Virus record (IMG/VR): IMGVR_UViG_3300042731_007944
Span: 32,001-96,000 of that record
Direction: 5' to 3' (one strand)
DNA: 64,000 bases
Source: a virus
The position numbers and the translations under genes are program-made. Below, piece by piece: positions 1 through 53,720 of the stretch. Positions within the stretch are counted from its first letter, which is position 1, and every line of letters begins with the position of its first letter. The notes beneath the pieces are model-generated. The model was not told the DNA's origin and made no database searches. It saw only the letters and a program-made list of their open reading frames with translations.

Positions 1-42
1 GATCCCGCAGCCATCTAACCGAAAGATAATTTTGAAATTCAT
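1..42 (-). CDS. csf3: 5' end of probable type IV-B Cas5-family subunit Csf3, truncated by the window edge
   Basis: ATG at 42-40 overlaps the cysH-like stop (ATGA). Reads MNFKIIFRLDGCGI, resembling the N-terminus of type IV-B Csf3, the one core subunit otherwise missing. Only 14 codons visible. Confidence 0.5.
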   Translation of the reverse strand, partial: MNFKIIFRLDGCGI

Positions 43-806
43 ACAATCACCCCGCGATCTCGTAATCGTTGAAATTGTTTCGGATAGTAAAAACGAATAT
101 GCTCTAAATCACCATACCTTATGCCAGTTGGGGTCGGTAATGCCCAACATAAGCGGATATCCTCAGGCGTATGAAAACGGTTATAAAAATAACAGGGGTT
201 AATTTCAATCTCATGCTCTATCAGATATGCAAAGACATCTTCAGCAGTCCATCTGCCTAATGGGCAGCATCGCCACTCACCATTTTTTAATTGGTATAGC
301 TCGCCACGTTTCGCAAGGTTCAAATACCGAGAACGACTTTCCTGAGATCGTAATCCCAAAAAAACAACAGAGCAGTCCAATTCCTGCTGCTTTTCATGTA
401 AAACTGCAAGAAATGAATCTTGCGTAAAAACATGAGTTTGGGTACAAATATTTTCAAATCCAAGCTGACATGAATACGAGCGTTCCCATACACTAAAGCC
501 AGGCTCAACTCTATGAAAATTCCATCCTTGCGCATGCGCTACCCGTTCAGCATACACTCGTTTCTCTGGCCAATCACAATCATCAAATTGAATCATGATC
601 GGCGTCTCAGGATAGAGTTCCTTGATCAAATGCGTCATGGCAGTGCTATCCTTCCCGGCACTCCAAGAAATGATGCTCTTGCCTTTCTTTTGAGCCGCAT
701 GGATAATCTTTTTTGCATAATCAAGATGTCTGAGATATTCTTGCGTTTTTGCGCGGAGTCGCCAGCGCAGGAAATTCCCTTGTTGTTTTATAAGGTGTCT
801 GTCCAT
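39..806 (-). CDS. PAPS reductase-family (CysH-like, PP-loop) protein of a type IV-B locus
   Basis: PP-loop SWSAGKDS, LGLRSQES.SR and PLGRWTAEDV motifs; in operon with csf1/csf2. Confidence 0.85.
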   Translation of the reverse strand: MDRHLIKQQGNFLRWRLRAKTQEYLRHLDYAKKIIHAAQKKGKSIISWSAGKDSTAMTHLIKELYPETPIMIQFDDCDWPEKRVYAERVAHAQGWNFHRVEPGFSVWERSYSCQLGFENICTQTHVFTQDSFLAVLHEKQQELDCSVVFLGLRSQESRSRYLNLAKRGELYQLKNGEWRCCPLGRWTAEDVFAYLIEHEIEINPCYFYNRFHTPEDIRLCWALPTPTGIRYGDLEHIRFYYPKQFQRLRDRGVIV

Positions 807-1918
807 TTTTTAATGACATCATCCGTGCGTTTTAGCTTATTTTTATATAAGATCTGCTCGCGTGTATAGTTAAACTCAAAATCTCGGTTCCATGTGATAT
901 TCCCTTCCCAATCACACAGCAGAATCCGTTTTACCATATATTTACACGCTCCCACATCGTCTGTATCACCGAATCGGCTCCATTGATACCTAAATAATTT
1001 CGAGAGATCAGGATGGATATTCTCAAGCAAAAAATCCTTATATTCTTTCCACGTTGAAAAGCGTTCAGGGAGGGCTTTAATTGAATACATCAAATTTTCA
1101 TTTGCATAAATTGCCGCAGAGTGGACTCCTTGTAAGCGTCGTTCTAATTTATCATAGGTTTCAGGTTCAAGTTCTTGTAGTGTGGCAAGGCACCTGAAGG
1201 CTTTTTCATGCACAAGATTTGATACGCGCATGGTTCTCAAATCAAGACCAAGCATATACATTTTATCATAAATCTTATTGTATTTTAGATTATTTTCTAC
1301 CAGATATTTCCAAACGTCTTTATATGTCCAATCAATGATAGGATATGCTTTATGAGGTTTATTTTTTCGACGTAACCAGAATAATTCTGAGTCTTCGCCA
1401 AACATAACAAAACGGCGATCTGGACTTTCATCAGCACGTAATCCGATAATAGAAACACTCTTTCCGGGTCGTTTTTTTAGCTGTTGCCCAACCCATAAAT
1501 TGAATTTATGAAACCTTCTGGGGTATTTTTTTTCAATATCATGAATTGCGATTGGATGCTTTTCTCTCACCCATTGTTCCCCTTGCCCCCATGCCCATAA
1601 AAATAATTGTTGATGGCTTGCAGCGTTCGTCATAAATATTGGGACTTGATACCACAAAGGGATAACGTTTGGTTGTGTCATAGCCCATTCGACCATATCA
1701 ATTGTTCCCTGATATTCGGCTTCCTGGTCTTGGAAATAAAGAATAAACTGACGAGATCTTTTGATAGCCTCTGCATTAACGAGATGGAATAGGGCAGTAC
1801 TATCTTTTCCCCCAGAAAACGATAACTGAATGTTATCATAATGGTCAAAAAGATATGTAATGCGCTTTTTGACAGCAGACAAGACATCAATTTCTCCATA
1901 TATTGCAGTCCTGCCCAT
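788..1918 (-). CDS. ibrA: IbrA-like PAPS reductase/DUF3440-family protein
   Basis: SFSGGKDS, DQEAEY, IGLRADES..R, YPIIDW, YNKIYDKMY..G, MRVS motifs; start moved to MGRTAIY after GGAGG RBS; paired with IbrB-like gene. Confidence 0.8.
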   Translation of the reverse strand: MGRTAIYGEIDVLSAVKKRITYLFDHYDNIQLSFSGGKDSTALFHLVNAEAIKRSRQFILYFQDQEAEYQGTIDMVEWAMTQPNVIPLWYQVPIFMTNAASHQQLFLWAWGQGEQWVREKHPIAIHDIEKKYPRRFHKFNLWVGQQLKKRPGKSVSIIGLRADESPDRRFVMFGEDSELFWLRRKNKPHKAYPIIDWTYKDVWKYLVENNLKYNKIYDKMYMLGLDLRTMRVSNLVHEKAFRCLATLQELEPETYDKLERRLQGVHSAAIYANENLMYSIKALPERFSTWKEYKDFLLENIHPDLSKLFRYQWSRFGDTDDVGACKYMVKRILLCDWEGNITWNRDFEFNYTREQILYKNKLKRTDDVIKKWTDTL

Positions 1919-1919
1919 A

Positions 1920-2459
1920 TTACACCTCCTCTTGAATATCTTCTCCGGCTTCGACAATTTGCCTTTCAATTGAATATGGAACGCCTAAGATTTCAGAAGC
2001 AATGCCTTTTAATCCGATCAATCGTTGAATTTCATCAAGCGTCATCCCTAATTCAGTCATAATTTTTTCTTCCGACCAGCCTTCTTTGAGTATTGTAACT
2101 AAAGAGGCTTGCAATTCAACCTCATGTTTGCCACGTGCCCGATTATGACGAATTGTTGACGCCATGCGTTCGCTAATATCCTTATTGATAACAGAGACTG
2201 GAATCATTCCTTGTTCCCTCTCAAAAATATCAACGTACATCAACATAATACTATACCGATGATAGCCATCAACAATAGTGTATTTGTCTCGTGTTTGATC
2301 ATAATAACAGACAATCGGCATGGTAAACCCATCTTGTTTGATGCTTTGGTACAAGAGATCCATTTCTCGCTTTGCTACGTGATTTGGGTTATAATCATTC
2401 GCTTCAATTTTTTCAATAGGAATAGCTTTAATATTATACACTGGACTTTGGAAATTCAT
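1920..2459 (-). CDS. ibrB: IbrB-like ParB/Srx-domain protein
   Basis: ANDYNPNHVA..E..LL..SI..DGFT.PIV, IVDGYHRY, STIRHNRARGKH. Confidence 0.85.
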   Translation of the reverse strand: MNFQSPVYNIKAIPIEKIEANDYNPNHVAKREMDLLYQSIKQDGFTMPIVCYYDQTRDKYTIVDGYHRYSIMLMYVDIFEREQGMIPVSVINKDISERMASTIRHNRARGKHEVELQASLVTILKEGWSEEKIMTELGMTLDEIQRLIGLKGIASEILGVPYSIERQIVEAGEDIQEEV

Positions 2460-3321
2460 GTTTTAATTCCTCCTGTGACGGCAGCAAATAACACAGAAAC
2501 GCATACAGCGCTGACAGGTATTTGTCCTTGGCCCACAACTCAAACGCCATCCACGTAGACAGACCGACTGTTCGCATGAGATACGGCGGACAGTCAAGCG
2601 ATTCCAACACCGTCCGCCCGATCCCATTTCGCAGCGCCCCATTCAACACCTTCCACCAGTCACGCACCTGCACCATATCCGAACAATCGACCTGCCGTTC
2701 CTCGAACAGCCAGAACCGGTGCGAACCCGTATTGACTTTGGCTAACAAACTTCCGTGCTTTTTGTAACTGGTGGTGGCATAGGCGGCCCAGTTTGAAGGG
2801 AGTTCTTCCCGAAACATCATCTCTCGCACGCCGATCCGATCTAATTCCTGAAACGTCTGTCCATCACAGAACCAGGACGACATCCGTTCCGGTTTCTTCG
2901 TGATCTTTTTCTGGGTGACATTCAAGATCGTCTCAAGTTCCTCGGTCCAGGTTCCAAGCCCGTCCCGAAACGAGGCTTCCGTGCAAAACCCTTGCGCTTC
3001 CACCGCTTTCCACAGGTTCAGCGGTGTGTGTCGAACGCCTTGTGTTAAGAGTTTCTTTTCGAGTGGTTCCGTCAAGGGTTTCGGCGCGGTCAAATAGCCA
3101 TAGTTCCAGGCGTAAAACACATCAACACTGACATATTCGCTGCCAGGGACCGCTAAGAGATCGCCATTCGTAAAGGACTTCCCTAATACGTCTTTGCGTG
3201 GCAAACAGGCCGTCTGTTGTCCCGTTACCGCACAGACGGCATTAATGGAGTTTGATGGGAGTTCCGGCAATGGAACCCCCTCATGTTGGAGCGCCTGACT
3301 AATTAGCGAACAAGGATGCAT
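2434..3321 (-). CDS. csf1: type IV Csf1 (Cas8-like) large subunit
   Basis: N-terminal CAVTG...KSFTNGDLL..PGS.YV (degenerate Zn-finger region), central SYKKHG, directly downstream of csf2. Confidence 0.7.
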   Translation of the reverse strand: MHPCSLISQALQHEGVPLPELPSNSINAVCAVTGQQTACLPRKDVLGKSFTNGDLLAVPGSEYVSVDVFYAWNYGYLTAPKPLTEPLEKKLLTQGVRHTPLNLWKAVEAQGFCTEASFRDGLGTWTEELETILNVTQKKITKKPERMSSWFCDGQTFQELDRIGVREMMFREELPSNWAAYATTSYKKHGSLLAKVNTGSHRFWLFEERQVDCSDMVQVRDWWKVLNGALRNGIGRTVLESLDCPPYLMRTVGLSTWMAFELWAKDKYLSALYAFLCYLLPSQEELKHEFPKSSV

Positions 3322-4546
3322 TTTTGAGACCTCCAATAGATTCGAGATAGTCTAAAATCTCAGATGTCTTCTCAGCGACATACGCATCATACAAGCCAGG
3401 ATCGGGATAGCCTTCCGGGAACTCGATCTTGACGTTGCCTTCCCCCTTCCGGTTTTCCGCCCCAAGTTTTCCGGATTGCTGGAAGAGAGACAGCATCTTG
3501 CCGATACAGGATCGTTCCAATTCTGTCGCATGGTCGAGGATATCAATGCCGCCATCTAAGACCGTCCCTTGCATCAGACATTCCGTATTCGCGATCATCT
3601 GGGCGCTTTTCTGCCCATCAACCCGGCCTTCATAATCGTCTTTTCGCGTCAAGAATTCCCAGGTAAACAGACTGGCTGCATTCAGATCGCCGGTATTCCA
3701 CTCTTGACAGCGAGGCTTAAAATCTAAATTATCAAACCGGCGCGGAACCGTTCGATTGCCTAATGCTGTGCCGAAAATCGACAACGGCAGGACCATGTCT
3801 CGAAATTTGTGAAGGCCCGTGGTGCGCACGGCCCCTGACCCGCTGCCAAGTTCTTTTGACAGGGCTTTGGCTTCCTGACTGTTTTCTTCCAGCTTGCCCC
3901 CGCTAAAGAGGGCGTAATAGAACCACTCGGAATACGGAGGGTTACTATGACTGGGTTGCAAGCCTAATGCCTGCGTCCAATTCCACGCTAAGAGGCGGCG
4001 ACAGTTTCCACGAATGGCATTGGCCGCATAGACGGGAAGGACTAAGATTTGTCCGGTCGTGCTTCGGCATTCCTGCCTCCGGTATAAGGTCGAATTTCCG
4101 GCCTTTTTGTCGGCCCCGTGCGCCAGCGGCGAAAGACAGGTGATCACCATCGGCAGATTTGGCGTACAGCCCGGCATGGCGGTTCCCATCTCACCCACGT
4201 CCGGGATCGTCATATCTTTTAATGCGTTATCAAAGTCTTCTTCAGTTTTCAGGGAACAACAGATCATACTCGCAACCCGTGGGTATGATCGCAGCCAGGA
4301 TAACACGCCCTGACTCTCCGAGGCGTTCACTACTGTCAGAAAATCAGCAACGGTCTTGCCTCCGATATATTCCAGTTCAACATTGACGCTTCCGGCCAGC
4401 CGTTCAATAAACCCTAACAATGACTGTTGTGTTCCGGCCTTTACGATCTGGTCGGTGTAGTAATCAGCAAACCCGCGATGGAGTTTGATGTTGGATGCGC
4501 GGGAAATCGCCCGCATCATTGACATCGTTGCGTGTAATGTACTCAT
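3299..4546 (-). CDS. csf2: type IV Csf2 (Cas7 RAMP) with N-terminal helical Cas11-like domain
   Basis: ITCLSPLAHG, LPVYAANAIRG..RRL, LFSGGKL, LSIFGT, Gly-rich LGAENRKGEG loop; about 120-aa N-terminal extension. Confidence 0.8.
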   Translation of the reverse strand: MSTLHATMSMMRAISRASNIKLHRGFADYYTDQIVKAGTQQSLLGFIERLAGSVNVELEYIGGKTVADFLTVVNASESQGVLSWLRSYPRVASMICCSLKTEEDFDNALKDMTIPDVGEMGTAMPGCTPNLPMVITCLSPLAHGADKKAGNSTLYRRQECRSTTGQILVLPVYAANAIRGNCRRLLAWNWTQALGLQPSHSNPPYSEWFYYALFSGGKLEENSQEAKALSKELGSGSGAVRTTGLHKFRDMVLPLSIFGTALGNRTVPRRFDNLDFKPRCQEWNTGDLNAASLFTWEFLTRKDDYEGRVDGQKSAQMIANTECLMQGTVLDGGIDILDHATELERSCIGKMLSLFQQSGKLGAENRKGEGNVKIEFPEGYPDPGLYDAYVAEKTSEILDYLESIGGLKNASLFAN

Positions 4547-4992
4547 AATAATTTTTCCTTTCGCAGCCGACATAATTTAATCCGACACGCCAGGCGGCTG
4601 CGACCTTCCGGGCGTATTCCGTTTTTCACGAGTTCACGTTCTTGCGGGGTCCAGGTGGTATGTTCCACCGGGTTCCCGTGATGCTTGCGCGTCTGCATCA
4701 CAAGCAGACAATCTTCCAGGTCTTTGAGCGAGTGCCGCCAGTACCACCATTTCTGCCACCCTCTGCGTCGCGCCCCGCGCCGACCTTTGAGCCACCCCTT
4801 TTTCCGCCAGACATGGACGGTAGATCGGTCAACGTGCATCAGATCCGCGATATCCTGCGTGGAGAGCTTTCGCCGGGTGTAGTCTCGCGGTAAGCGCTGT
4901 CGAAAATTCGCCGGATAAAACAGGTGATCCGGCGTGCCCACATTGCACGGAATGCCCATTGCGTGTGAGACGCCTTCCTGGTACGCCGTCAT
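4543..4992 (-). CDS. HTH DNA-binding protein (excisionase/MerR-like HTH)
   Basis: LSTQDIADLMHVDRSTVHVWRKKGWL; overlaps csf2 start. Confidence 0.6.
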   Translation of the reverse strand: MTAYQEGVSHAMGIPCNVGTPDHLFYPANFRQRLPRDYTRRKLSTQDIADLMHVDRSTVHVWRKKGWLKGRRGARRRGWQKWWYWRHSLKDLEDCLLVMQTRKHHGNPVEHTTWTPQERELVKNGIRPEGRSRLACRIKLCRLRKEKLL

Positions 4993-5180
4993 GTTTCCTG
5001 TTCAAACTCCCGCAACAGCGCTTTCCTGACGCGCTCCGGGCCATCCTCCTCTGTTAAAATGTGCTGTTTCAATTCAGGCGGTATGCGGACGGTGTAGTTC
5101 ACCATTGCTTCGTCATAGATCGGCGGACGTCCCGATCCGCCAGCGTGTCCTTTTGTGCCGCGACTGCCCTTTCCGCCCAT
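4989..5180 (-). CDS. small ribbon-helix-helix-like regulator, first gene of the type IV operon
   Basis: GRPP..MVNYTVRIPPELK; ATG lies 6 nt after the -10 box (leaderless). Confidence 0.5.
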   Translation of the reverse strand: MGGKGSRGTKGHAGGSGRPPIYDEAMVNYTVRIPPELKQHILTEEDGPERVRKALLREFEQET

Positions 5181-5186
5181 ATCCAG

Positions 5187-5227
5187 AGGCTAGATCGGGT
5201 TTCTAATTTTGTCAAGCAGAATTAGAA
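5187..5227 (-). promoter_or_regulatory. sigma70 promoter of the type IV operon with overlapping inverted repeat
   Basis: TTGACA(5215-5210)-17 bp-TAGCCT; TTCTAATT (5201-5208) and AATTAGAA (5220-5227) flank the -35 box. Confidence 0.55.
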
Positions 5228-5255
5228 AAAAAGGCCCGAAGCGAGAACTTCGGGC
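5226..5255 (-). terminator. intrinsic terminator
   Basis: GCCCGAAG-loop-CTTCGGGC followed by a T-run on the minus strand. Confidence 0.7.
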
Positions 5256-5262
5256 ACGCTGG

Positions 5263-5634
5263 CTAGAGATTGTAATGTAGCGTCACCGTGTTGCAGCCAT
5301 CAAAATCAAACTGCAATAATTTCTGCACATCGCCCTCACTCGTCAAGACCCATTCTCCAGGCGCAAGCTCAAACACTTGCGATTTATCGTGCTGCACATA
5401 GTGCTGGCACCAGGAGACTAATTCTTCCGTTGACGGGTCGCCAGAGGGATTAATAATCACAATATCTTCTTGTTGAATGATTAACGGTGACTCAACATTA
5501 GAACCGTGATATTTCAAGAAATACAACGTGCCTCGCCGTTGGATATAGCCCTCCAGCCGATCCGTCGTAATATTTTCTCCAGATGCCATTGACAGCACGG
5601 CCTGCACAAACTCATGTGCTGGTACAGTTTTCAT
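5263..5634 (-). CDS. hypothetical protein
   Basis: ORF from MKTVPAH with GGAG RBS, overlapping the upstream stop. Confidence 0.55.
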   Translation of the reverse strand: MKTVPAHEFVQAVLSMASGENITTDRLEGYIQRRGTLYFLKYHGSNVESPLIIQQEDIVIINPSGDPSTEELVSWCQHYVQHDKSQVFELAPGEWVLTSEGDVQKLLQFDFDGCNTVTLHYNL

Positions 5635-5894
5635 GGCGTTTTCTCCTTTTTTTTCTTCGCGTCCCGCCGTGCCTTTGCCCGCAATTGCGCGGCTCGGCGC
5701 TGGCAGTACCGTGAGCAATATTTTTTCTGCTTCAGATCCCTGGCGTTCGTGATCTCGAAGAGTTTCCCGCATTCACTGAACGCACAGTGGCGCGTGACTA
5801 ACAATTCCGGTTTCTGGTTTAACACGGGAACCGCCGCCCGAAAGACGGTGTACCCCCGCGCTTGCAGGAATTGAATGGCGTCGGCTTCCGTCAT
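5631..5894 (-). CDS. small Cys-rich (C..C / KYCS..C) zinc-binding protein
   Basis: CAFSECGKLF...KKYCSRYCQ; coupled by ATGA overlaps. Confidence 0.6.
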   Translation of the reverse strand: MTEADAIQFLQARGYTVFRAAVPVLNQKPELLVTRHCAFSECGKLFEITNARDLKQKKYCSRYCQRRAAQLRAKARRDAKKKKEKTP

Positions 5895-8858: not shown

Positions 8859-11399
8859 TCAGCGTAGCCCGTATTTCTTCAGCTTTGTATGCAGCGTCTG
8901 GCGGACAATACCCAGCCGTTTCGCCGCTTCCGTCACATTCCCATGACACGCCATAAGCACTCGCTGAATATATTGCTTCTCTGTCTGTTCGAGTTGCTCC
9001 GCCAACGAAAATCGCGCGGTATCCGATAATGCCAGATCCGGCGCAATGGACAGATCGCCGGTGGCAAAAAACGAGTCGAGGACCCGGTAGAGTTCCCGGA
9101 CATTGCCCGGCCAATCATAGTCAAACAGCAGCGTCATGACCTCTGCCGGAAGAAATTCTCGCTCTCGCCATTGCGGATGGTGGCGAATATAGTGCTCAAC
9201 GAGCAGTGGCAAGTCGTCTTTGCGCTTGCGCAAGGCAGGCAAGCGTATTTGTACGCCCTGGAGCCGATACCAGAGATCCTTCCGGAAAGCCCCGTCTGCT
9301 ATGTCTCGCATGAGATCCCGGTTGGTGGCCGCAAGAATTCTGAGATCAACCGAAATCACGCGATCCGATCCGACCGGGCGAAATGACAACGTATCGATTA
9401 CGCGTAACAATTTTTGTTGCGACTCCAGCGACAAGTTTTCAATTTCATCCAGAAAGAGCGTGCCGCCGTTGGCCTGGATCAAGTACCCATCCCGATGAGA
9501 CATTGCGCCCGTAAACGCGCCTTTCCGGTGGCCGAAAAACGCGCTTTCAAACAAGTTCGGTGAGATCGCCCCGCAATCCACCTCAATAAATGCCCTGGCA
9601 CTCCGAGGACTGCGTTGATGAATTTCACGGGCCACCAATTCTTTGCCCGTTCCGGTTTCGCCAACCAAGACGACCGAAATGTCCGAGGCCGCTGTCTGCG
9701 AAATGCGCGAATACACCCGCTGCATTAATGGGTGTTTCCCGATTAATGCGCCGTACCGAAATCGGGTCTGCTGGGCATCTTCAAGTTGCGTTTCCAGCGC
9801 CTGCTGTCGCTGTCGTTCTTCTGTGATGTCACGCCCGAAGGCAAAAAACTCACAGACCTTCCCGCTTTTGAGGATGATCGGCGTAATGGACCACTCGATC
9901 CACTTGTTGTCCTGGTGGACAATAAGCGGTGTCTGCTTGTTGATCGCAAGGATCTGACGAAAGATTTTTTCACTCGGGACAAACGCCCGAAACGAGATCG
10001 GAAGATCCGGCCATCGGTTGCGAATCGACGCATTCACTTCTGACAGCACTCCGTTCGGCAGAAACGCACAGAAAAAATTTTTTTCGTGTTCAAGCATCGC
10101 TATATGTCGTTTTGCGTTCAGTTCGGCGTCTTTGCGCAAGAGCCGCTCTTGCGTCCAGGCGTGCTGCAACCGGGCCGCCATCGCATTAAATGCCCGGCTG
10201 AGACGTCCGATCTCCTCAATTCGGGCCGTGTTGATATCTGCCCGGATGGACAACGATCCCCCGTGGTGCGCTTGATCCATCGTCTGACACAGTGCTTCGA
10301 GAGGCCGGGCCAGGGACCGGCTGATCCGCCAGGAGAGTGCCGCGATGCCAGCCGATCCAAGCACCAGAATGCCGGTCACAACGCCAAACAGACGCCACAG
10401 CACGATCCGTTCTTCATCCCGTGGCTGGATCAGCAGAAACGCCCCACCAGCAAACCCAACCTTGCTGAGATACGCCGCCCGCGTTGTGCGTATGTTCGGG
10501 GCCGTAGGAATCGCTGAAAGATCAACGTCAAGAGGGGCGTCAAGGGAACTCAGTCGTCGTATTCCGTCGATCATTAATGTGACATGGACATCGCCCATTC
10601 GCCGGAACCGGTGCATGTCGAGATCGCTCACGGTCCGCAGTTCCCGCACGATCCCGAACCGCTCATGATTATACGTAATTGGCAGGCAATACTCGAAAAA
10701 GATGCCATCCGGGAAGGAGACGATTTCAAACCGGCCGTCTGTTGGAATCTCATCATCAAAGATGGTCGGCACGCTGGCAGGCGTCGGGATCGCGCGGATG
10801 TCTGTTTCTTGCTCGACGTATACATACCAGCGATCCTCCGGATGCATCTGTGTAAAGACTCCACCCTCGATAAAGGGTAAATAGACGCCGCCCGACAGGA
10901 TATCCGGATCGTCAGGATCGCGCTGAGCCATTCCGACCAGTACGCCCTCTCGATCATACACGGCGGCGTTTTGCGCCCCGACGAGGCGAAAATAATTCAC
11001 CAATTCCAGCGCAAAGAAATAATAATACGACTTCGTCCGATCAAAGCGCTCCATCGGGAGGAGGTCTTCGCTTTGCAACCACAGATCAAGCATATAGAGC
11101 CGATTCCGAATCGCTGGCTCAGCCTGCTTCATCTGATTGAGATAGATGATTTGCATGAGCCGCAAATCATCGTGAATGATGGCCGCCGCGCGTTCCACAT
11201 GCTGTTGAAAATCATGCCGTACCTGCCAGAGGAAAACGGCATAATAGCCGGCCGCAACGATCAGGCATCCGACGAGCGTAAATTGAAAAAAGGAAAGAAA
11301 AAACCGTTTGCGTAAGGTCATTAGAGAAACGGGGCGTCGAGCGAGTGCAAACAGGCAACCCGGCTGACTCGACACGAGTCCCGTGGCTTTCCGTCCCAT
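8859..11399 (-). CDS. membrane-anchored sigma54-dependent enhancer-binding activator (TM-sensor-TM-HAMP-PAS-like-AAA+-Fis HTH)
   Basis: GETGTGKE, GAFTGA, GGTLFLDEI, WPGNVREL, C-terminal GNVTEAAKRLGI; HAMP EIGRLSRAFNAM. Confidence 0.92.
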   Translation of the reverse strand: MGRKATGLVSSQPGCLFALARRPVSLMTLRKRFFLSFFQFTLVGCLIVAAGYYAVFLWQVRHDFQQHVERAAAIIHDDLRLMQIIYLNQMKQAEPAIRNRLYMLDLWLQSEDLLPMERFDRTKSYYYFFALELVNYFRLVGAQNAAVYDREGVLVGMAQRDPDDPDILSGGVYLPFIEGGVFTQMHPEDRWYVYVEQETDIRAIPTPASVPTIFDDEIPTDGRFEIVSFPDGIFFEYCLPITYNHERFGIVRELRTVSDLDMHRFRRMGDVHVTLMIDGIRRLSSLDAPLDVDLSAIPTAPNIRTTRAAYLSKVGFAGGAFLLIQPRDEERIVLWRLFGVVTGILVLGSAGIAALSWRISRSLARPLEALCQTMDQAHHGGSLSIRADINTARIEEIGRLSRAFNAMAARLQHAWTQERLLRKDAELNAKRHIAMLEHEKNFFCAFLPNGVLSEVNASIRNRWPDLPISFRAFVPSEKIFRQILAINKQTPLIVHQDNKWIEWSITPIILKSGKVCEFFAFGRDITEERQRQQALETQLEDAQQTRFRYGALIGKHPLMQRVYSRISQTAASDISVVLVGETGTGKELVAREIHQRSPRSARAFIEVDCGAISPNLFESAFFGHRKGAFTGAMSHRDGYLIQANGGTLFLDEIENLSLESQQKLLRVIDTLSFRPVGSDRVISVDLRILAATNRDLMRDIADGAFRKDLWYRLQGVQIRLPALRKRKDDLPLLVEHYIRHHPQWREREFLPAEVMTLLFDYDWPGNVRELYRVLDSFFATGDLSIAPDLALSDTARFSLAEQLEQTEKQYIQRVLMACHGNVTEAAKRLGIVRQTLHTKLKKYGLR

Positions 11400-11494
11400 C
11401 CTCGCGGATGGTTTGGCATTTTTCTGTGTTCAGTAGGTACTCTATACGATAGTGCGTGGGGAGAAAAATGTCAAATCGGTCTAGCAAAAAAAAT

Positions 11495-18503: not shown

Positions 18504-18779
18504 ATGACCGCTTTCGATCTCTACTGTGAATTGCGACAGCATGACATGAGGGCGCTCTATCATGGAAAGCCCTGTCAAGTGCTGACAATGCAATACGAAA
18601 CACCGAATGAGTTGGGCATCAGCCAAGAGATGCATGACGCTTTACCGGAAGGCCGTACCACGACACTCAGGGTGCGCTATTTCAACGAATTTTTGCAGGA
18701 AGATGACGAGGCGTTGCTGTTTCTGGATGAGTTTGTGAACTGCTCCCGGACATCAATGCCCGGGCATCTATGCCGCTGA
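18504..18779 (+). CDS. hypothetical protein whose last codons were replaced by the IS605 insertion
   Basis: Joining 18734 to 20482 gives ...LDEF-INPL-stop. Confidence 0.55.
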   Translation: MTAFDLYCELRQHDMRALYHGKPCQVLTMQYETPNELGISQEMHDALPEGRTTTLRVRYFNEFLQEDDEALLFLDEFVNCSRTSMPGHLCR

Positions 18780-19934
18780 CGCGGCAAGCGTCGCCAGCCC
18801 GCGACGCAATAAAACGAGAGAGGACACGTAGTCTCGATTTTCGACCAGCCCGCATTTCGGGCATTCATGCACTCGTTGCGACAGTGTTTTCCGTACTGGC
18901 TCCCCACAGACGCATACTTGTGAACTGCCTCTCGGGTTGGTCGGGATTCGACGTTTCCCTTGCTCTTTGACTTTATAGGCAACGATATTCAGAAATAGGC
19001 CCCAGGCCGCGTCTGAAATAGAGAGGTGCAAGCCTGACGTATGACACGCACCGTTCGGCAGATACGTCCCAGTATCATCCTGTTTTGCCTTTGGACGCCT
19101 GAGCATATTTCGGATATTCAGGTTTTCGTGAATGAGATAATCCGTTTGTTTTAAGAGCGCGTTTGCTGTCTTGTGTAAAAAATCCAACCGCTGACACTTG
19201 ACGCGATAATGGGTTTTTTGGATGGCCTTCAAAAGTTTGTACCATTGCGGAGAGCGTTTCGGAGCCTTTGCAAATCGCCGTTGAAGACGTTTCAGGCGTT
19301 GCTGTGATTTTCGGAAGGCTTTGGGATAGACGCAATGAAACCCGTTTGAGGCATAGACATAATCATTCAACCCTAAGTCAATCGCTAGAGGTGGCAAGGC
19401 GTCTTTAGGCTCTACTGATACTTCTAATTCAGTAGAGAAAGACGCAAACCACTTGCCTCCATCTTGTAAAATCGTCAGAGTTTTGATTGTGGCCTCTTCC
19501 GGGATCGGGCGATGATACACACACTTCATGTTGCCAACTTTTGGTACATAGAATGAGTCAGAGGGACGTTGCGTATATTGCGGATAAGTAATTGACGACC
19601 ACCTGCCACGTTTTTTAAACTTCGGGAACCCAGGCACGTCGCCCTGTTTAACTCGGCGGAAGAAGGCGTCAAAGGCGTTATCCAGACGGCGTAAGACATC
19701 TTGAAGCACCTGAGAATGGACACCCTTAAACCACGGACGGGCTTTTTTAAGGAGAGGAAGTTGGCGTTTTTGTTCATACCAGGACACAGACCGGCCTTCC
19801 TGCTCATAGACGTCCATACGTTCTTTGAGTGACCAGTTGTACACATAGCGGCACATCGAAAATTGATTCTTCAGGTTTGTCTGTTGCGCTTTTGTCGGAT
19901 AAATCCTATATTTATACGCCTTACGAAGGATCAT
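18768..19934 (-). CDS. tnpB: TnpB RNA-guided endonuclease
   Basis: KAYKYRIYP, RuvC AIDLG / HENL / NRD, Zn finger CVCG...CPKCG. Confidence 0.93.
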   Translation of the reverse strand: MILRKAYKYRIYPTKAQQTNLKNQFSMCRYVYNWSLKERMDVYEQEGRSVSWYEQKRQLPLLKKARPWFKGVHSQVLQDVLRRLDNAFDAFFRRVKQGDVPGFPKFKKRGRWSSITYPQYTQRPSDSFYVPKVGNMKCVYHRPIPEEATIKTLTILQDGGKWFASFSTELEVSVEPKDALPPLAIDLGLNDYVYASNGFHCVYPKAFRKSQQRLKRLQRRFAKAPKRSPQWYKLLKAIQKTHYRVKCQRLDFLHKTANALLKQTDYLIHENLNIRNMLRRPKAKQDDTGTYLPNGACHTSGLHLSISDAAWGLFLNIVAYKVKEQGKRRIPTNPRGSSQVCVCGEPVRKTLSQRVHECPKCGLVENRDYVSSLVLLRRGLATLAASAA

Positions 19935-20341
19935 TTGGTTTTTTGATCGGCAATATACCGCGTGACCGTCTCTTCTGAAACGTGTCCGATAGTTTCCACA
20001 TACGTTGAGGGGTTCCACAGATGCCCATTCCAGAGACGTTTCTGTAACTCTGGAAATTCAAGCAAGAGGCGTCTCGCAGAAATGCCCTTCATTAATTTAT
20101 ACATATGCGAGGCAGAGTATTTTGGATGCCCAGACACAAACACATGTACATGATCCGGCATGACCTCCAGTGATTGGATGACAAATCCTTTTTCTTTTGC
20201 GATCTCATGTAACAGTGTCTTGAGTCTGGTATCAATGCCGTTGACCAATACCTTGCGACGATACTTGACCGTCCAAACAATGTGATAGTTCGCATTATAC
20301 ACGACCGTTCTGGCATAGGTAAACCGTTCCTTGTCTCGCAT
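19931..20341 (-). CDS. tnpA: IS200-type HUH (Y1) transposase
   Basis: YHIVWTVKYRR, MPDHVH, KGISAR, LWNPS, YI..Q. Confidence 0.95.
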   Translation of the reverse strand: MRDKERFTYARTVVYNANYHIVWTVKYRRKVLVNGIDTRLKTLLHEIAKEKGFVIQSLEVMPDHVHVFVSGHPKYSASHMYKLMKGISARRLLLEFPELQKRLWNGHLWNPSTYVETIGHVSEETVTRYIADQKTK

Positions 20342-21814: not shown

Positions 21815-23398
21815 CTACCCTCCTATCACGAAATATTGTGATTCCACCGGGAGGATTTCCGGATTCGTCACCTTATAGAGTATATCATCCAGATAGACCG
21901 GATCGGGCGACGAGACCCCTTCTACGGCATTCAATACCGTGCCAACAGCCGTATACCCGGCCCCGACATAGAACTTTTCTGCGTAGCCGGTCGGCGCATA
22001 GGCGGGTTGCCAAAAATAGCGGCTCAGCATCGTGCCAGACGCTTCCACGCTGCCATCAATCAGGATCGACAGCGTGCCGAGGGAAAAGAGAATTTCCACC
22101 TGATGCCAGGCGTTATCATTCATCGTGGTCGTCGTGGTCAAGATGTAGCCGCCAGCCGGGTTCCAGACGTTTGTGAGTTTGATCTTCGGCGCGTTATACG
22201 GAGAGGCTGAGTCCAACGCGACACAAAGGTTGAATGCTTGTAAGATTCCGCGATTGGCGAAATACCCGCCGTTGGTTTTTACCCAGAAGGACAGGGAAAA
22301 ATCGCCGTATGGCGTCAAATCGCTGCCCAATGCCGTCACAACTTCGAGATAGTCGCCTCCGGATCCCATACCGGTTGAGGCCGTTAGTTTGATGGACGAG
22401 GCCCCAGTGTGCGCGGTATCCGTGCTATGTTTGACGCCCCCGTGGGCTGTGATGGCATGCGGATCTCCGCTGGAATCGGTAAAGGTGGTACTGCCGTCTG
22501 TGGTGTCTGATTGGAGATTGAAGACCGTCACTTCCCCCGGTCCAGCAAACCCATTGATCAGGAATTTCCCGGTGCCGAGCGTGAGATAATCCGGGGAGGC
22601 CGCCGCCATCGAGACATTGCTGAAATCGCGTGTTGCGGGCATGACGCCGAATTTAAACAGTGGCGCTTTCGGGGCATCTGGAAGCAAGAACACGGCTTTT
22701 ACGGCATCTGTTACCGCCGCGAGTGCTTCTTCCTGTGCTGCGGATCCGGTAGGCGTACAGGATCCCTGTTCCGCTTCCGCTAACCCGGCAAACGCGCCTG
22801 AGAGATGTGCCCCGGCTTCGGTATGCCCTCCTTGAAATTTGGTATCCAGATCGTATTCCACCGAATTCGCCGAGGTGGTTTCATCGCCACCCTGAAGCGG
22901 GGTTCCGTGCTGAATCCAGGCGGGCGGATCATCATTCACCCCAGGATCGGGGGTGCTGCCGTACCCGAGGACAAAATAGTGATACGTCACGCCTGACGTA
23001 TTTACCTCTGCCGCCGTGCCGAGCGTAAACCCGGTTGTGGAGATCGCCGTCACGCGATCTGTCTGTGGCGCTTCCTCTGCCGTGCTTTTCATCTTCGGCA
23101 TTCCGTCACCTGTGACGAGATACAGGTTGCCGTCTTGCTCGCTCCAAATCCATAAGCAGAGGATTTCGGTAAAGGTCGTGATCAGAAAATCAATGGTTTG
23201 GGCGGCGCTTGCGCCTTCATAGGTACTCGTTTCCGGAATCGGGAAACTATTATACGGGGGCGTATGCCCCCCGCTCGGATAGTGTTGATTCAGAAAGCTT
23301 TCCCAGAGCTCTTTTCCGTACCGATTTTTCGTATCCGGGTATTTTGGATGATTTTCCGCGATAATATACTCATCCGCGCTAATCAGTGTTCGTGCCAT
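21815..23398 (-). CDS. tail fibre/receptor-binding protein with LamG-like domain
   Basis: DGSTTFTDSS, DFSLSFWVK, DNAWHQV...IDG, YLDDI; at the end of the tail operon. Confidence 0.65.
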   Translation of the reverse strand: MARTLISADEYIIAENHPKYPDTKNRYGKELWESFLNQHYPSGGHTPPYNSFPIPETSTYEGASAAQTIDFLITTFTEILCLWIWSEQDGNLYLVTGDGMPKMKSTAEEAPQTDRVTAISTTGFTLGTAAEVNTSGVTYHYFVLGYGSTPDPGVNDDPPAWIQHGTPLQGGDETTSANSVEYDLDTKFQGGHTEAGAHLSGAFAGLAEAEQGSCTPTGSAAQEEALAAVTDAVKAVFLLPDAPKAPLFKFGVMPATRDFSNVSMAAASPDYLTLGTGKFLINGFAGPGEVTVFNLQSDTTDGSTTFTDSSGDPHAITAHGGVKHSTDTAHTGASSIKLTASTGMGSGGDYLEVVTALGSDLTPYGDFSLSFWVKTNGGYFANRGILQAFNLCVALDSASPYNAPKIKLTNVWNPAGGYILTTTTTMNDNAWHQVEILFSLGTLSILIDGSVEASGTMLSRYFWQPAYAPTGYAEKFYVGAGYTAVGTVLNAVEGVSSPDPVYLDDILYKVTNPEILPVESQYFVIGG

Positions 23399-27231: not shown

Positions 27232-28311
27232 TCAGATCCTCGTCTTCACGCACTCTTTGAAGTGCAGATCCACGGCCCCGTGAAAATCCACCCCGGCGAA
27301 CTGCTGGCGGAAATCCCGAATATTGCGCCAATCACAGAGAAAGAATGTCTCTGGCTCATCATAAAACAGATGGACATACAGTGGGTGGATCTTTCCGCTC
27401 GTGACGATATCCACCACGGCGGCCTGCATGGCAGCGAGACTCGCAATATCGTTCAGCGATTGCACGTCATAGTGCAGCAGGAGATCCGCTTGCTGCGCAT
27501 ACGCCTTGTGTCGAAACATGCCGGCTGGATTCTCACTCTCCGCCCCGGTGTAGCCGTAGCCTCGCGAGGACGTCCACCAGGCGTTTGCTTCGAGTTCGCG
27601 ATAGGATCCCAGATAGAGCGTCGCCGTTTGAAAATACGACAGCGCCCCATCCACCGGGACGATGCGCCAGTACCGGTACGTCTGATCCAGGTAGAAGATC
27701 AGCTTGTGATCCGTCACGGTGATCGCCTGCGAATACGCCGGGCTGCCCCAACTGTCTGAGGAGTTCGCCTGAAGCGTCAACGTGCTTTGCCCGGCCACCA
27801 GATTGTGATTCATCAGGGCAAAGGCCGTCACCTGCTGCGCACTGCCGAGGTCAATCACGATCGGAAACGTGGCTCCTGACCGAAAAAGACTGTTGGGGTT
27901 CAAATTCAGCAGGTTTCCGGCTCCGTATTTCGCCACGGCGAAGAACTGAAAGGTGTCTTCCAGCGTGAAGTCATCGCCGACCCCCGCCTGCCAGGCGATC
28001 TTAACGCCATAATTCAGCGTGGCAAGCGTCGTGAGGGTCGTGACGCCGGTGGCTTCCCAGCCGGAGCTTTCTGAGGTCTTCCAACGATAGGTCGCCTGCC
28101 CCACAGAGACGCCGGGTGTGATGCTGTCGATCTGGGCGATGTAATCCAGGTTCTGCGCCCCGGCAAACGATCCGGCGGCAAACGCCGCCGCGCTGCCGGT
28201 CCCTCGCGTTTTCTCCACCCCGGAGACGATCCCCCCGGCCTGACTGCCTGCGGCGATCATATCCACGGACGTAATGTAGTTCGTATCCAGATAGCGCTCA
28301 GCGGTATACAT
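27232..28311 (-). CDS. distal tail-like protein with discoidin-like insert
   Basis: IDLGSAQQVT..ALMNHNL, YRYWRI; directly after tape measure. Confidence 0.6.
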   Translation of the reverse strand: MYTAERYLDTNYITSVDMIAAGSQAGGIVSGVEKTRGTGSAAAFAAGSFAGAQNLDYIAQIDSITPGVSVGQATYRWKTSESSGWEATGVTTLTTLATLNYGVKIAWQAGVGDDFTLEDTFQFFAVAKYGAGNLLNLNPNSLFRSGATFPIVIDLGSAQQVTAFALMNHNLVAGQSTLTLQANSSDSWGSPAYSQAITVTDHKLIFYLDQTYRYWRIVPVDGALSYFQTATLYLGSYRELEANAWWTSSRGYGYTGAESENPAGMFRHKAYAQQADLLLHYDVQSLNDIASLAAMQAAVVDIVTSGKIHPLYVHLFYDEPETFFLCDWRNIRDFRQQFAGVDFHGAVDLHFKECVKTRI

Positions 28312-52036: not shown

Positions 52037-53578
52037 CTACGCTCCTTGGTTGGTGGGGAATAACTCAGGGTGTTCGGTTGCGACGAGCTTGAGCGCGTCG
52101 GTGTCCGACAGCTTCGGATTCCCTTGTTGTTTGTCTTTGGCTAACGCCTCACGTTTGGCTTTGAGTTTGGCGTTATCTTCGCGTGTTGGCTCCTTTGCGT
52201 CAGGGGCCAACGGTTCTGTCGGCACTCGGGCAAACTTGGCGGCTTCTGCGAGCAGCATCTGTGCCCAAGTCTGTTGGGACACCGTGTCACCGGTTCCCAG
52301 GGTGATGGTTGGCTCCTGACTCAACGTCAACAGCCCATCCACAACGTTCAATTCATCAAACGACGCCGGCAGGTGTCCGGCCTGAAGATCAGTGTAAAAA
52401 ATCTCAACCTGATGTCGCCGGTCTTTTGCCTGCATCTGGGCGGCATGTGTGGCTTCCAGATCAGCCTTTTCCTGATCGAAGGCTTCGCGCTGGGTTTGTA
52501 ATGCCTGTGCAACCGCATCTTTGATCGCCGCGTTCAGTTCAGGGGTGACGGCGCTGGTGCTGACGTTTTCTACGTCCTGCGTCTCTTCAGTGAGTTCGGT
52601 CTCCGGGGCTTCGTCCGGAGCGTCGTCACTGGCACGATCAGCAGGGGCGTCAATGGTATCGTCCGAGTCCGGGGTGTCCTGTTTCAGGGTCTCTTGAGAG
52701 TCTTCAACAGGGGTGTCTTTCCCTTCTTCCGGAGCGTCCACCACGTCGTCAACGGCCTGATCTTCCGCGTCCATGGCTTGTGTCTTTTTGCGTGGCATAG
52801 GTGGTTTCTCCTTATGCTCAGGGTTATCAGAGAGGGAGACCATCGCCTTTCGGTCAGGCAATGACCACCCGGCGGACGAAAACGACGCCGCCAGATCAGC
52901 GCGGGTGTCGTCTTCGAGGGTGTCAGCGGGTTGCGCCAGAGGGTCAGCGCCCGCAATCACAATAGAGGTTTCGAGGTAGCGGCGGATATGGGTGGCGATG
53001 AAGCGCACGATCTGCCCATCCACTTCCGTGCCCATCGCCTCATAGAACGACCAATCATCGAGGGTTGGATGGGATTTCTCGTAATCGAACCAGACACGAA
53101 CCGAAGAGCCTTTAATATAGCCTTGTTCGACCCCTCGCACGACGATGCGGTGCGGGTGTTCCGGGGGAAGTTGGGGCTTTTTATCAAGCTTATAGATCGC
53201 ATCAATGCCGGACACGGGCACGCCGTTGATGTCATCCGTCCAAAAGGCGTCATCCACGATCCCGATATATTCAGCCGCGGAAAACCGATGATCAGACATG
53301 ACCGTGACATCTTTCAGCAGCGGGGCGCTCGGTTTCAGGACGCCCTCTTTCGAGAAATCCGTAACGACCATCCCGAAAAAGCCTTCTTGCCAAACCAGGG
53401 CCTGCGAGAGGGCGCGATAGTGTAACTTCAGGAATTCTGAGGTTTCCTCAAGGACGCGTGGGGCCTGGAGCGTGGCGCGATGCTGAGGCTGTGCGGCCAG
53501 CGAAAAGGAGACCGGAGAAATCCGGCCTTCAATAGTTCCGTCGTCATACACGCTGAACAGCGGGCGTGTCGTAGTCAT
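52037..53578 (-). CDS. prohead protease-scaffold fusion
   Basis: VMSDH, IKGSSV, ETSIVIAGADP; acidic linker; C-terminal DALKLVATEHPELF. Confidence 0.7.
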   Translation of the reverse strand: MTTTRPLFSVYDDGTIEGRISPVSFSLAAQPQHRATLQAPRVLEETSEFLKLHYRALSQALVWQEGFFGMVVTDFSKEGVLKPSAPLLKDVTVMSDHRFSAAEYIGIVDDAFWTDDINGVPVSGIDAIYKLDKKPQLPPEHPHRIVVRGVEQGYIKGSSVRVWFDYEKSHPTLDDWSFYEAMGTEVDGQIVRFIATHIRRYLETSIVIAGADPLAQPADTLEDDTRADLAASFSSAGWSLPDRKAMVSLSDNPEHKEKPPMPRKKTQAMDAEDQAVDDVVDAPEEGKDTPVEDSQETLKQDTPDSDDTIDAPADRASDDAPDEAPETELTEETQDVENVSTSAVTPELNAAIKDAVAQALQTQREAFDQEKADLEATHAAQMQAKDRRHQVEIFYTDLQAGHLPASFDELNVVDGLLTLSQEPTITLGTGDTVSQQTWAQMLLAEAAKFARVPTEPLAPDAKEPTREDNAKLKAKREALAKDKQQGNPKLSDTDALKLVATEHPELFPTNQGA

Positions 53579-53720
53579 GCGTTCAACAGGCGTCCGTGTT
53601 GGCCTGTTCGACGCGGGGCGTTGACCGCCTGCCATCGTGCGAGCATGTCGTTGTGCTTCTGGTGGTCTCGCGTGGGTTGTTGTGTCTTCTCCTCGTCAAT
53701 TTTCTTCATTGTTACAGGCA

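What the first reader, a model, noticed from the sequence alone, without database searches (positions are those of the whole stretch)
1..5227. Phage-borne, array-less type IV-B CRISPR effector operon with an embedded ibrAB pair (two PP-loop enzymes)
Seen: one translationally coupled operon from its own promoter, in the order RHH, HTH, cas11/csf2, csf1, ibrB, ibrA, cysH-like, csf3 start. No cas1, cas2, cas6 or CRISPR array is in the window, and ibrB-ibrA-cysH looks more AT-rich than csf1/csf2. Known: type IV-B loci usually carry a cysH-like gene and lack arrays, and their function is unresolved. Inference: a second PAPS-reductase-like enzyme plus a ParB/Srx partner inside the cas operon suggests the Cas7 filament is coupled to nucleotide or sulfur-transfer chemistry (modification or anti-defence) rather than to cleavage.
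Basis: partly seen in the sequence, partly recalled or inferred. Interest (0 to 1): 0.75.

Follow-up and report, generated by a model that had tools for sequence, protein, structure and literature searches.

The report
Phage type IV-B CRISPR operon with IbrAB
An uncultured tailed phage carries a guide-array-less type IV-B CRISPR-like complex whose enzyme slot holds the usual CysH-like enzyme plus a captured IbrB-IbrA enzyme pair, and this combination recurs in about a quarter of related operons, which gives a testable clue to a CRISPR subtype of unknown function.

Summary
On the minus strand lies one tightly packed operon. Its order is a small RHH-like ORF, an HTH protein, a Cas11-Csf2 fusion, Csf1, IbrB (ParB/Srx), IbrA (PP-loop plus DUF3440), a CysH-like PP-loop enzyme, and Csf3, which ends just left of the window.

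The 105-kb record is a tailed phage. It has no CRISPR array, Cas1 or Cas6.

ibrB, ibrA and cysH are compositionally foreign: GC3 is 0.33-0.37 against 0.57-0.61 for the csf genes.

I surveyed 136 related loci, which form 94 clusters. In 64 clusters the operon is complete, and the position between csf1 and csf3 behaves as an exchangeable enzyme slot:
- CysH-like only: 37
- IbrAB plus CysH-like: 13
- IbrAB only: 5
- B12-type radical SAM: 5
- nothing detected: 4

However, the window's ibrBA is 70-83% identical to stand-alone pairs in phages that lack csf genes, for example Flavobacterium columnare phages. It is therefore a captured autonomous module.

Physical or chemical coupling to the Csf complex remains an inference, and sulfur chemistry is not supported. 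This scan had already reported the radical-SAM variant on other DNA; the IbrAB variant is the new part. I class it as a new variant of a known kind, with moderately high interest.

The parts
5234..5255 (-). Intrinsic-terminator-like hairpin with a T run. It ends the preceding gene (5263-5772) and marks the upstream border of the operon.
5183..5212 (-). Putative promoter: a TTGACA box about 30 nt before the first ATG, with a weak -10.
   Evidence: Read from the sequence. It was not listed by the consensus scan.
4989..5180 (-). 63-aa ORF, RHH-like by pattern only. Its stop overlaps the next start (ATGA).
   Evidence: No family or PDB match.
4543..4992 (-). 149-aa HTH protein, a putative operon regulator. 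Homologues lie upstream of csf2 in L061, L062 and L065.
   Evidence: Weak HTH_23/HTH_17 hits below cut-off.
4172..4546 (-). Cas11-like seven-helix N-terminal domain of the Csf2 protein (aa 1-125 of the 415-aa form).
   Evidence: AF2 pLDDT 92.9. The best of 48,161 PDB representatives is 7jhy_h, a 143-residue chain of the type IV-B complex taken here to be Cas11: Z 7.8, rmsd 3.4, 102 aligned, next row 4.4. The profile's best PDB hit is Cas11c, E 0.0034.
3299..4171 (-). Csf2 (Cas7) domain of the fusion protein.
   Evidence: PADLOC Csf2_0_IV, E 7e-37. AF2 pLDDT 85.6. Foldseek top hits are type IV-A and IV-B Csf2 (7xg2_E, 7jhy_a), E about 3e-8.
2434..3321 (-). Csf1 (type IV large subunit), 295 aa counted from the ATG at 3321. 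Only one cysteine is invariant, and a TTSYKKHG motif and the C-terminal YLLPSQEEL are conserved.
   Evidence: PADLOC Csf1_0_IV, E 1e-8; alignment A3.
1920..2459 (-). IbrB-like ParB/Srx protein (179 aa) with a DGYHR motif.
   Evidence: ParB_N 6e-7; phrog_2159 2e-80; motif.
788..1918 (-). IbrA-like PP-loop enzyme (376 aa): PAPS_reduct + DUF3440, with SGGKDS and GLRADES motifs.
39..806 (-). CysH-like (Cas-CysH) PP-loop enzyme, 255 aa, with SAGKDS and GLRSQES motifs and no ECGLH catalytic cysteine motif.
1..42 (-). Start of Csf3 (Cas5), 212 aa. The gene continues left of the window to genome C1:31404 (L002:17404-18042).
   Evidence: PADLOC Csf3_0_IV, E 3e-34.

Best explanation
Shown. The operon encodes a complete, array-less type IV-B-like Csf complex: a Cas11-Csf2 fusion as backbone, Csf1 as large subunit and Csf3 as Cas5. 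In this family the position between csf1 and csf3 is an exchangeable enzyme slot. Here the slot holds the family's usual CysH-like PP-loop ATP pyrophosphatase plus a captured, otherwise autonomous phage module, IbrB (ParB/Srx fold) and IbrA (PP-loop enzyme with DUF3440).

Inferred.
- As in the solved IV-B complex, the Csf proteins assemble on an RNA and bind nucleic acid without cutting it.
- The slot enzymes are the effectors. They use ATP to adenylate, and so chemically mark, the bound or neighbouring nucleic acid, most likely DNA given the ParB-fold partner.
- The phage uses this to mark or shield its own genome, or to silence a competitor.
- IbrBA adds or broadens this chemistry beside CysH. 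In relatives that lack CysH, IbrA replaces it.
For: - Subunit identities.
- The catalytic PP-loop motifs of CysH-like proteins are invariant across 31 sequences (S49, G51, K52, S54, G151, E156, R160). They are also intact in IbrA, and IbrB has the ParB/Srx DGxHR motif.
- Slot contents in the 64 complete non-redundant operons: CysH-like only 37, IbrAB plus CysH 13, IbrAB only 5, B12-type radical SAM 5, none detected 4. IbrAB-containing operons show nine gene orders.
- Every IbrA/IbrB hit in csf loci lies between csf1 and csf3. None lies in the 8-10 kb flanks.
- On the Csf2 tree the slot class changes at least 13 times and IbrAB presence at least 6 times. Well-supported branches alone force 3-4 changes.
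- Csf-linked IbrA falls into at least three separate groups on the IbrA tree. One is an old csf-only clade of 10 sequences.
- The window's nearest Csf2 relatives carry CysH only (L004), radical SAM (L061/L062), or a different, old-type IbrA in the opposite order (L049/L086).
- Other nucleic-acid-enzyme-like genes ride in the slot in relatives: a DNA-methylase-like protein, a GNAT and a PRTase.
- The genes are translationally coupled in one operon.
- Published hypothesis: Cas-CysH AMPylates nucleic acid bound by the IV-B complex (PMC8175902).
Against: - There is no direct evidence of binding between any slot enzyme and the Csf proteins.
- The window's ibrBA is 70-83% identical to 46 stand-alone pairs in phage contigs. 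Of these, 45 have no csf gene within 7 kb, and they include Flavobacterium columnare phages. The pair therefore needs no Csf partner to function.
- The low GC3 of ibrBA suggests a recent arrival, leaving little time for co-adaptation.
- No guide RNA gene, mini-array or conserved non-coding element was found near the operons.
- The substrate and chemistry of IbrA, IbrB and Cas-CysH are unknown in the literature I could reach.
Confidence: 0.45

Rival explanations
1. Passenger insertion. ibrBA is a self-sufficient phage module that landed in a tolerated junction of the csf operon and merely shares its promoter. The Csf complex and IbrAB act independently.
For: - Near-identical stand-alone ibrB-ibrA pairs occur in 46 phage contigs, 45 of them without csf genes within 7 kb.
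- The cassette has a foreign GC3.
- An AU test does not reject a single origin for the csf-embedded copies inside the conserved IbrA clade (p 0.20).
Against: - IbrAB lies in the same slot in 18 of 64 complete non-redundant operons, in nine gene orders and from at least three IbrA lineages.
- An old csf-only IbrA clade exists.
- Five clusters have IbrAB but no CysH-like gene, which suggests functional replacement.
- No IbrAB lies in the flanks of csf loci.
Confidence: 0.25
2. RNA sponge or anti-CRISPR. The phage complex soaks up host crRNAs or other small RNAs, and the PP-loop enzymes adenylate or otherwise inactivate them.
For: - The solved IV-B complex assembles on heterogeneous non-CRISPR RNA, and the sponge idea is discussed in print (PMC7937560 and PMC7038947).
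- The system is phage-borne and has no array.
Against: - IbrB has a ParB-fold domain typical of DNA-binding proteins.
- In 9 of the 40 relatives listed, Csf1 ends in a motif resembling a sliding-clamp-binding peptide. This points to DNA.
- The authors themselves judged so complex an anti-CRISPR unlikely.
Confidence: 0.12
3. Gene-expression control. IbrAB were first described as activators of prophage genes, and type IV-A complexes repress transcription. The module would then tune lysogeny or the phage's plasmid-like maintenance functions, under its own RHH-like and HTH regulators.
For: - IbrAB were named for activating prophage eib genes (Sandt et al. 2002, seen only as a reference).
- Type IV-A acts by transcriptional interference (PMC12669027).
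- The operon has dedicated regulator genes.
Against: - No guide RNA or target is identifiable.
- The strictly conserved catalytic motifs of three enzymes point to chemistry, not plain DNA binding.
Confidence: 0.1
4. Decaying remnant with no function.
For: There is no array, adaptation genes or nuclease.
Against: - All eight ORFs are intact and coupled.
- Csf3 has 23 invariant columns, and the CysH-like and Csf1 proteins have conserved motifs, across 30-40 distant relatives.
- The family has over 260 members of constant length.
Confidence: 0.03

Closest known systems
Subtype IV-B CRISPR-Cas (csf1, cas11, csf2, csf3 plus a cysH-like gene), e.g. Mycobacterium sp. JS623, PDB 7JHY
   Same: It has Csf1, Csf2, Csf3, a Cas11-like small subunit and a CysH-like gene. 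It has no array, Cas6, adaptation genes, helicase or nuclease. It sits on a mobile element.
   Different: - Cas11 is fused to the N-terminus of Csf2, a feature shared by over 260 relatives.
- The gene order is csf2-csf1-[enzymes]-csf3.
- The enzyme position is exchangeable and here also holds IbrB-IbrA.
- The carrier is a tailed phage, whereas IV-B is reported mainly from predicted plasmids.
IbrA/IbrB of the E. coli ECOR-9 island (K-12 paralogues YbdN/YbdM) and stand-alone phage pairs such as those of Flavobacterium phage FCL-2
   Same: It has the PAPS_reduct + DUF3440 enzyme next to a ParB_N protein, in the same order, and IbrA is 78.8% identical to that of the F. columnare phages.
   Different: The pair is embedded in, and co-transcribed with, a csf operon. 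Its biochemistry is unknown in every context.
Phage type IV-B-like operons with a radical SAM enzyme in place of CysH
   Same: They share the Csf backbone family and the same slot logic. I found the radical SAM variant again among this window's relatives.
   Different: Here the slot holds two PP-loop enzymes and a ParB-fold protein, and no radical SAM enzyme.
DndB/DndC (DNA phosphorothioation) and DpdB (ParB-like ATPase of 7-deazaguanine DNA modification)
   Same: They pair a ParB-fold protein with a PAPS-reductase-family or nucleotide-handling enzyme in DNA-marking systems (PADLOC DndC hits at 1e-7 to 3e-8; PMC12839542).
   Different: There is no DndA, DndD or DndE, no DndC cysteine set and no TGT. 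The matches are only at superfamily level.
Type IV-B locus of the archaeal 'Fuxiviridae' viruses (PMC10848311)
   Same: It is a virus-encoded IV-B system with a CysH-like gene next to csf3.
   Different: That locus has a mini-array and a separate cas11. It is in an archaeal virus and has no IbrAB.

Membership tests
Subtype IV-B CRISPR-Cas | Csf2 (type IV Cas7) | tested here: met
   PADLOC Csf2_0_IV, E 7e-37. Foldseek top hits are type IV-A and IV-B Csf2 chains, E about 3e-8.
Subtype IV-B CRISPR-Cas | Csf1 (small type IV large subunit) | tested here: met
   PADLOC Csf1_0_IV, E 1e-8 over aa 151-215 only. The protein is conserved in the same position in relatives. The match is weak and partial.
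Subtype IV-B CRISPR-Cas | Csf3 (type IV Cas5) | tested here: met
   PADLOC Csf3_0_IV, E 3e-34, nearly full length.
Subtype IV-B CRISPR-Cas | Cas11-like small subunit | tested here: met
   It is present as the N-terminal domain of Csf2, not as a separate gene. VIA-align gives Z 7.8 to 7jhy_h (a 143-residue chain of the IV-B complex, taken here to be Cas11), well above the next row at 4.4. The profile's best PDB hit is Cas11c, E 0.0034. Foldseek alone was not significant.
Subtype IV-B CRISPR-Cas | Associated cysH-like gene that lacks the reductase cysteine but keeps the PP-loop | tested here: met
   PAPS_reduct, E 8e-15. SxGKDS and GLRxxES are invariant, and there is no ECGLH motif. The profile hits PAPS reductase structures at about 1e-20.
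Subtype IV-B CRISPR-Cas | No CRISPR array, Cas6 or adaptation module | tested here: met
   The 105-kb record has no array-like repeats and no Cas1 or Cas6. The record is estimated 89% complete, so absence is not absolute.
Subtype IV-B CRISPR-Cas | Assembly of a Csf ribonucleoprotein on RNA | not testable with these tools
   This needs purification and RNA sequencing.
IbrA/IbrB module | IbrA architecture: PAPS_reduct domain followed by DUF3440, with an intact PP-loop | tested here: met
   PF01507 1.3e-17 and PF11922 8.5e-11, both above cut-off. phrog_2302 6e-119. SGGKDS motif.
IbrA/IbrB module | Adjacent ParB/Srx-fold partner (IbrB) | tested here: met
   ParB_N 6e-7, above cut-off. phrog_2159 2e-80. 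DGYHR motif. A 1-nt gap separates it from ibrA.
IbrA/IbrB module | Direct homology to E. coli IbrA/IbrB (YbdN/YbdM) | not tested
   Membership rests on the shared Pfam and PHROG families. No E. coli sequence was compared.
Canonical CysH (PAPS reductase of sulfate assimilation) | C-terminal catalytic cysteine (ECGLH-type motif) | tested here: not met
   The motif is absent from both the CysH-like protein and IbrA and from the consensus of 31 CysH-like relatives. The NCBIfam cysH scores are far below cut-off.

The most novel reading that the evidence does not exclude
Type IV-B-like Csf complexes are positioning platforms for chemical marking of nucleic acid. An RNA-loaded, nuclease-free Cascade-like filament would carry an exchangeable 'writer' module: a Cas-CysH adenylating enzyme, IbrA/IbrB, or a B12-type radical SAM enzyme. 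In some lineages it would be tethered to the replication clamp through the Csf1 tail. IbrAB would then be the first enzyme pair shown to be recruited repeatedly from the free phage pool into a CRISPR effector.
Probability: 0.2. Interest if true: 0.9.

Novelty: new variant of a known kind. Interest (0 to 1): 0.62.

Why it matters
The function of subtype IV-B has been open since its definition. Reviews point to the CysH-like partner as the key (PMC7038947, PMC7937560, PMC8175902). The biochemistry of IbrA/IbrB is also unknown.

This survey shows that one gene slot of a phage-borne IV-B lineage alternately holds CysH-like, IbrAB or radical SAM enzymes. The window's IbrBA comes from a pool of stand-alone pairs found in cultivable Flavobacterium phages.

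That links two unsolved systems and suggests simple experiments: pull-downs, nucleoside mass spectrometry and slot swaps. I found no paper linking IV-B with IbrAB or radical SAM enzymes.

Tried and rejected
- **Pfam and NCBIfam:** neither gave any hit for Csf1, Csf2 or Csf3. Only PADLOC and structure comparison identified them.
- **RHH assignment of the 63-aa ORF:** no support from Pfam, even at E 10, nor from PDB sequences.
- **Foldseek on the Cas11-like domain:** no significant match. The best was Cas11c 8g9s_L at E 1.2. The wide VIA-align search was needed.
- **Profile search of that domain against 1.84 billion representatives:** 120 hits. These were essentially the fused family and its fragments, with no clear stand-alone Cas11. 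The fusion is therefore linked to Cas11 mainly by structure.
- **Complex prediction (Csf1 + Csf3 + CysH-like, partner CysH-like):** no verdict, score 0.00, controls not run. This is neither for nor against binding. The tool was unreachable five times before that.
- **The look-up of encoding contigs:** Contexts of the IbrA homologues were taken from IMG/VR loci instead.
- **Guide RNA search:** there are no direct repeats of 18 nt or more within 400 nt of each other around the operon. No arrays lie in the flanks of loci L004-L058. No non-coding element is conserved across clusters within 450 nt upstream of csf2 or downstream of csf3. Rfam found only a tRNA and a riboswitch elsewhere.
- **Independent capture of the window's ibrBA versus the L076/L110/L177 copies:** the quick tree separates them, but the AU test does not reject one clade (p 0.20). 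I do not claim two captures within that clade.
- **Megablast of the region against cultured phages:** no match.
- **Sulfur-transfer reading:** rejected as the leading chemistry, because the reductase cysteine motif is absent.


Full report
**Where the window lies.** The window is bases 32001-96000 of a 104,987-bp IMG/VR virus record, estimated 89% complete. It is a tailed phage. PHROGs finds a large terminase (59440-61278), portal (53928-55262), head protease (52037-53635), tape measure (28311-30806), tail fibre (21815-23398) and a transposase (18768-20018). The terminase is only about 23% identical to those of Mu-like phages. Megablast finds no cultured relative.

**Anatomy of the operon.** All genes are on the minus strand.
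- A terminator-like hairpin (5255-5234) closes the preceding gene, and a TTGACA box follows.
- A 63-aa ORF (5180-4989) looks RHH-like, but no model matches it.
- A 149-aa HTH protein follows (4992-4543). Its HTH_23 and HTH_17 hits are below cut-off.
- The Csf2 protein probably starts at 4546, giving the 415-aa form called in the database.
- Then come Csf1 (3321-2434), IbrB (2459-1920), IbrA (1918-788) and the CysH-like gene (806-39).
- Csf3 starts at 42 and ends at genome position 31404 (L002:17404-18042).
- Junctions are ATGA overlaps, 19-26 nt overlaps or a 1-nt gap, so this is one translationally coupled operon.
- After csf3 come a weak terminator and a strong promoter for a separate 97-aa ORF.

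**Identities.**
- PADLOC type IV models hit Csf2 (7e-37), Csf1 (1e-8, partial) and Csf3 (3e-34). Pfam and NCBIfam see none of them.
- The AlphaFold model of Csf2 (pLDDT 85.6) matches type IV-A and IV-B Csf2 chains best, at about 3e-8.
- The first 110 or so residues form a seven-helix bundle. Modelled alone (pLDDT 92.9) and aligned against 48,161 PDB representatives, its best match is 7jhy_h, a 143-residue chain of the type IV-B complex that I take to be Cas11. The figures are Z 7.8, rmsd 3.4 Å and 102 residues aligned, with the next row at Z 4.4.
- A sequence profile of this domain has Cas11c as its best PDB hit, E 0.0034.
- The extension is present in all of more than 260 homologues, which are 405-440 aa long. 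Cas11 is therefore fused to Csf2 in this lineage, and the operon has every IV-B subunit.
- IbrB has ParB_N and the DGYHR motif. IbrA has PAPS_reduct + DUF3440 with SGGKDS. The CysH-like protein has SAGKDS and GLRSQES but no ECGLH cysteine motif.
- Across 31 CysH-like relatives the PP-loop residues are invariant. This fits the published view of Cas-CysH as an ATP alpha-hydrolase rather than a reductase (PMC8175902).

**No guide source.**
- The whole record has no CRISPR-like repeats.
- It has no Cas1 or Cas6, and only the two PAPS-reductase-family genes already named.
- Relatives L004-L058 have no arrays in their 8-10 kb flanks.
- No non-coding element is conserved across clusters.

**Composition.** The csf2, csf1 and csf3 genes have GC 0.51-0.53 and GC3 0.57-0.61. 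The ibrB, ibrA and cysH genes have GC 0.37, 0.38 and 0.43 and GC3 0.33-0.37. The three enzyme genes are therefore foreign to their neighbours.

**Survey of relatives.** With an alignment of the fused Csf2, I fetched 47 viral, 8 genomic and 80 metagenomic loci. I mapped the window's proteins and extra queries on them.

After clustering Csf2 at 90% identity there are 94 clusters, including the window's own locus. In 64 of them Csf2, Csf1 and Csf3 are all present:

| Slot content | Clusters |
|---|---|
| CysH-like only | 37 |
| IbrAB plus CysH-like | 13 |
| IbrAB only | 5 |
| Radical SAM | 5 |
| Nothing detected | 4 |

- The radical SAM proteins carry a B12-binding-type N-terminal domain. Their best family, TIGR04013, scores far below its cut-off.
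- IbrAB-containing operons show nine gene orders. The window's order (csf1-ibrB-ibrA-cysH-csf3) recurs in L026, L075, L076, L101 and L110.
- Some slots also hold a small DNA-methylase-like protein, a GNAT, or unknown proteins of 264-314 aa. A PRTase follows the radical SAM gene in L047.
- No IbrA or IbrB hit lies outside the slot in any csf locus.
- On a Csf2 tree the slot class changes at least 13 times and IbrAB presence at least 6 times. Well-supported branches alone force 3-4 changes.
- The window's own Csf2 clade (SH-aLRT support 97) contains CysH-only, IbrAB-only and CysH-IbrA-IbrB members. Equally close metagenomic relatives (L061, L062) carry a radical SAM gene behind a homologue of the window's HTH gene.

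**Origin of the window's ibrBA.**
- IbrA has more than 120 database clusters at 79-86% identity, including Flavobacteriaceae and Edaphocola MAGs. By contrast, the best Csf2 relative is 64% identical.
- Forty-six IMG/VR loci carry ibrB-ibrA in the same order at 70-83% identity. Forty-five of them have no csf gene within 7 kb.
- The cultured relatives are Flavobacterium columnare phages such as FCL-2, at 78.8% identity.
- On an IbrA tree, csf-linked copies fall into three groups: an old csf-only clade of ten (27-33% identical to the window's), a second basal group, and a few copies inside the tight stand-alone clade. The window's copy and L076/L110/L177 belong to the last group.
- An AU test does not reject a single origin for those last four (p 0.20).
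- The window's Csf2 kin carry the old-type IbrA in the opposite order. The window's pair was therefore acquired separately from theirs.

**Reading.**
- Shown: this is a complete array-less IV-B-like operon on a phage. It has an exchangeable enzyme slot, a captured IbrBA pair within it, and conserved catalytic motifs.
- Inferred: the slot enzymes are the effectors of a nuclease-free Csf ribonucleoprotein and chemically mark nucleic acid.
- The alternation of PP-loop enzymes and a radical SAM enzyme in one slot fits nucleic-acid modification. So does the company of methylase-like, GNAT and PRTase genes. It does not prove it.
- The main rival is that IbrBA is an autonomous passenger.
- A complex prediction for Csf1, Csf3 and CysH-like gave no verdict and carries no weight either way.

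**Comparison with what is known.**
- The papers I could search describe IV-B as array-less, mostly plasmid-borne and nearly always linked to cysH, with unknown function (PMC7038947, PMC7937560, PMC8175902, PMC11656645, PMC12669027).
- A virus-borne IV-B is known from archaeal 'Fuxiviridae' (PMC10848311).
- None of these papers mentions IbrAB, DUF3440, ParB or radical SAM with IV-B.
- A 2015 virome table lists one scaffold with 'IbrA/B CRISPR/Cas system' without analysis (PMC4490671).
- This scan had already reported the radical SAM variant on other DNA, and IbrAB cassettes with methylase-like and GNAT partners. I treated these as leads and re-observed them in my own loci.

**Verdict.** The mechanistic inference is plausible and now testable, but unproven. 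This is a new variant of a known kind.

Noticed in passing
window 11350-11426 (-): A c-di-GMP-I-GGC riboswitch (RF03167, 60.2 bits against a gathering score of 59). It overlaps the annotated start of the 846-aa gene 8859-11399. Another reader described that gene as a sigma-54 activator.
   Followed up: partly
Csf1 C-termini in L070, L053, L077, L044, L011, L105, L125, L092, L042: In 9 of the 40 relatives listed, Csf1 carries a C-terminal extension that ends in a motif resembling the beta-clamp-binding peptide (for example QKLLF, QLDLF, NSLF, QMSLF). The window's Csf1 ends ...EELKHEFPKSSV and has no such motif.
   Followed up: partly
L053:11466-11547: Two copies of a 31-nt direct repeat with a period of 51 nt lie about 200 bp downstream of csf3 in an Anaerolineales MAG locus. 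Whether they form a mini-array or are operator sites is unknown.
   Followed up: no
L002:13601-15702 (+), i.e. genome C1:27601-29702: A 497-aa protein with a C-terminal Dam-type N6-adenine methylase domain is followed by a weak NERD-like protein. The pair lies about 1.7 kb beyond the csf3 end of the operon, on the opposite strand.
   Followed up: no
L002:16934-17227 (-), i.e. genome C1:30934-31227: A 97-aa ORF without any family match lies directly after csf3. It has its own near-consensus promoter, TTGACA-17-TATATT.
   Followed up: no
L023:12607-13514; L024:8108-8758; L010:6106-6714; L026:2046-2552; L047:6032-6703: Extra genes ride in the enzyme slot of relatives: a small N6_N4 methylase-like protein, a GNAT, two families of unknown 264-314 aa proteins, and an orotate-PRTase-like protein after the radical SAM gene.
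   Followed up: partly
proteins P0241 and P0312: These short database proteins join the Cas11-like domain directly to the C-terminal RPPYWN...CCEVG motif of Csf3. They may be deletion derivatives or assembly chimeras.
   Followed up: no
L177:2300-5145: A different, distant csf context: a Csf3-like gene (32% identity), then conserved-type IbrB-IbrA, then a CysH-like gene (26% identity).
   Followed up: no
L002:7581-7654 (-), i.e. genome C1:21581-21654: A phage-encoded tRNA, the only Rfam hit in the left 34 kb.
   Followed up: no
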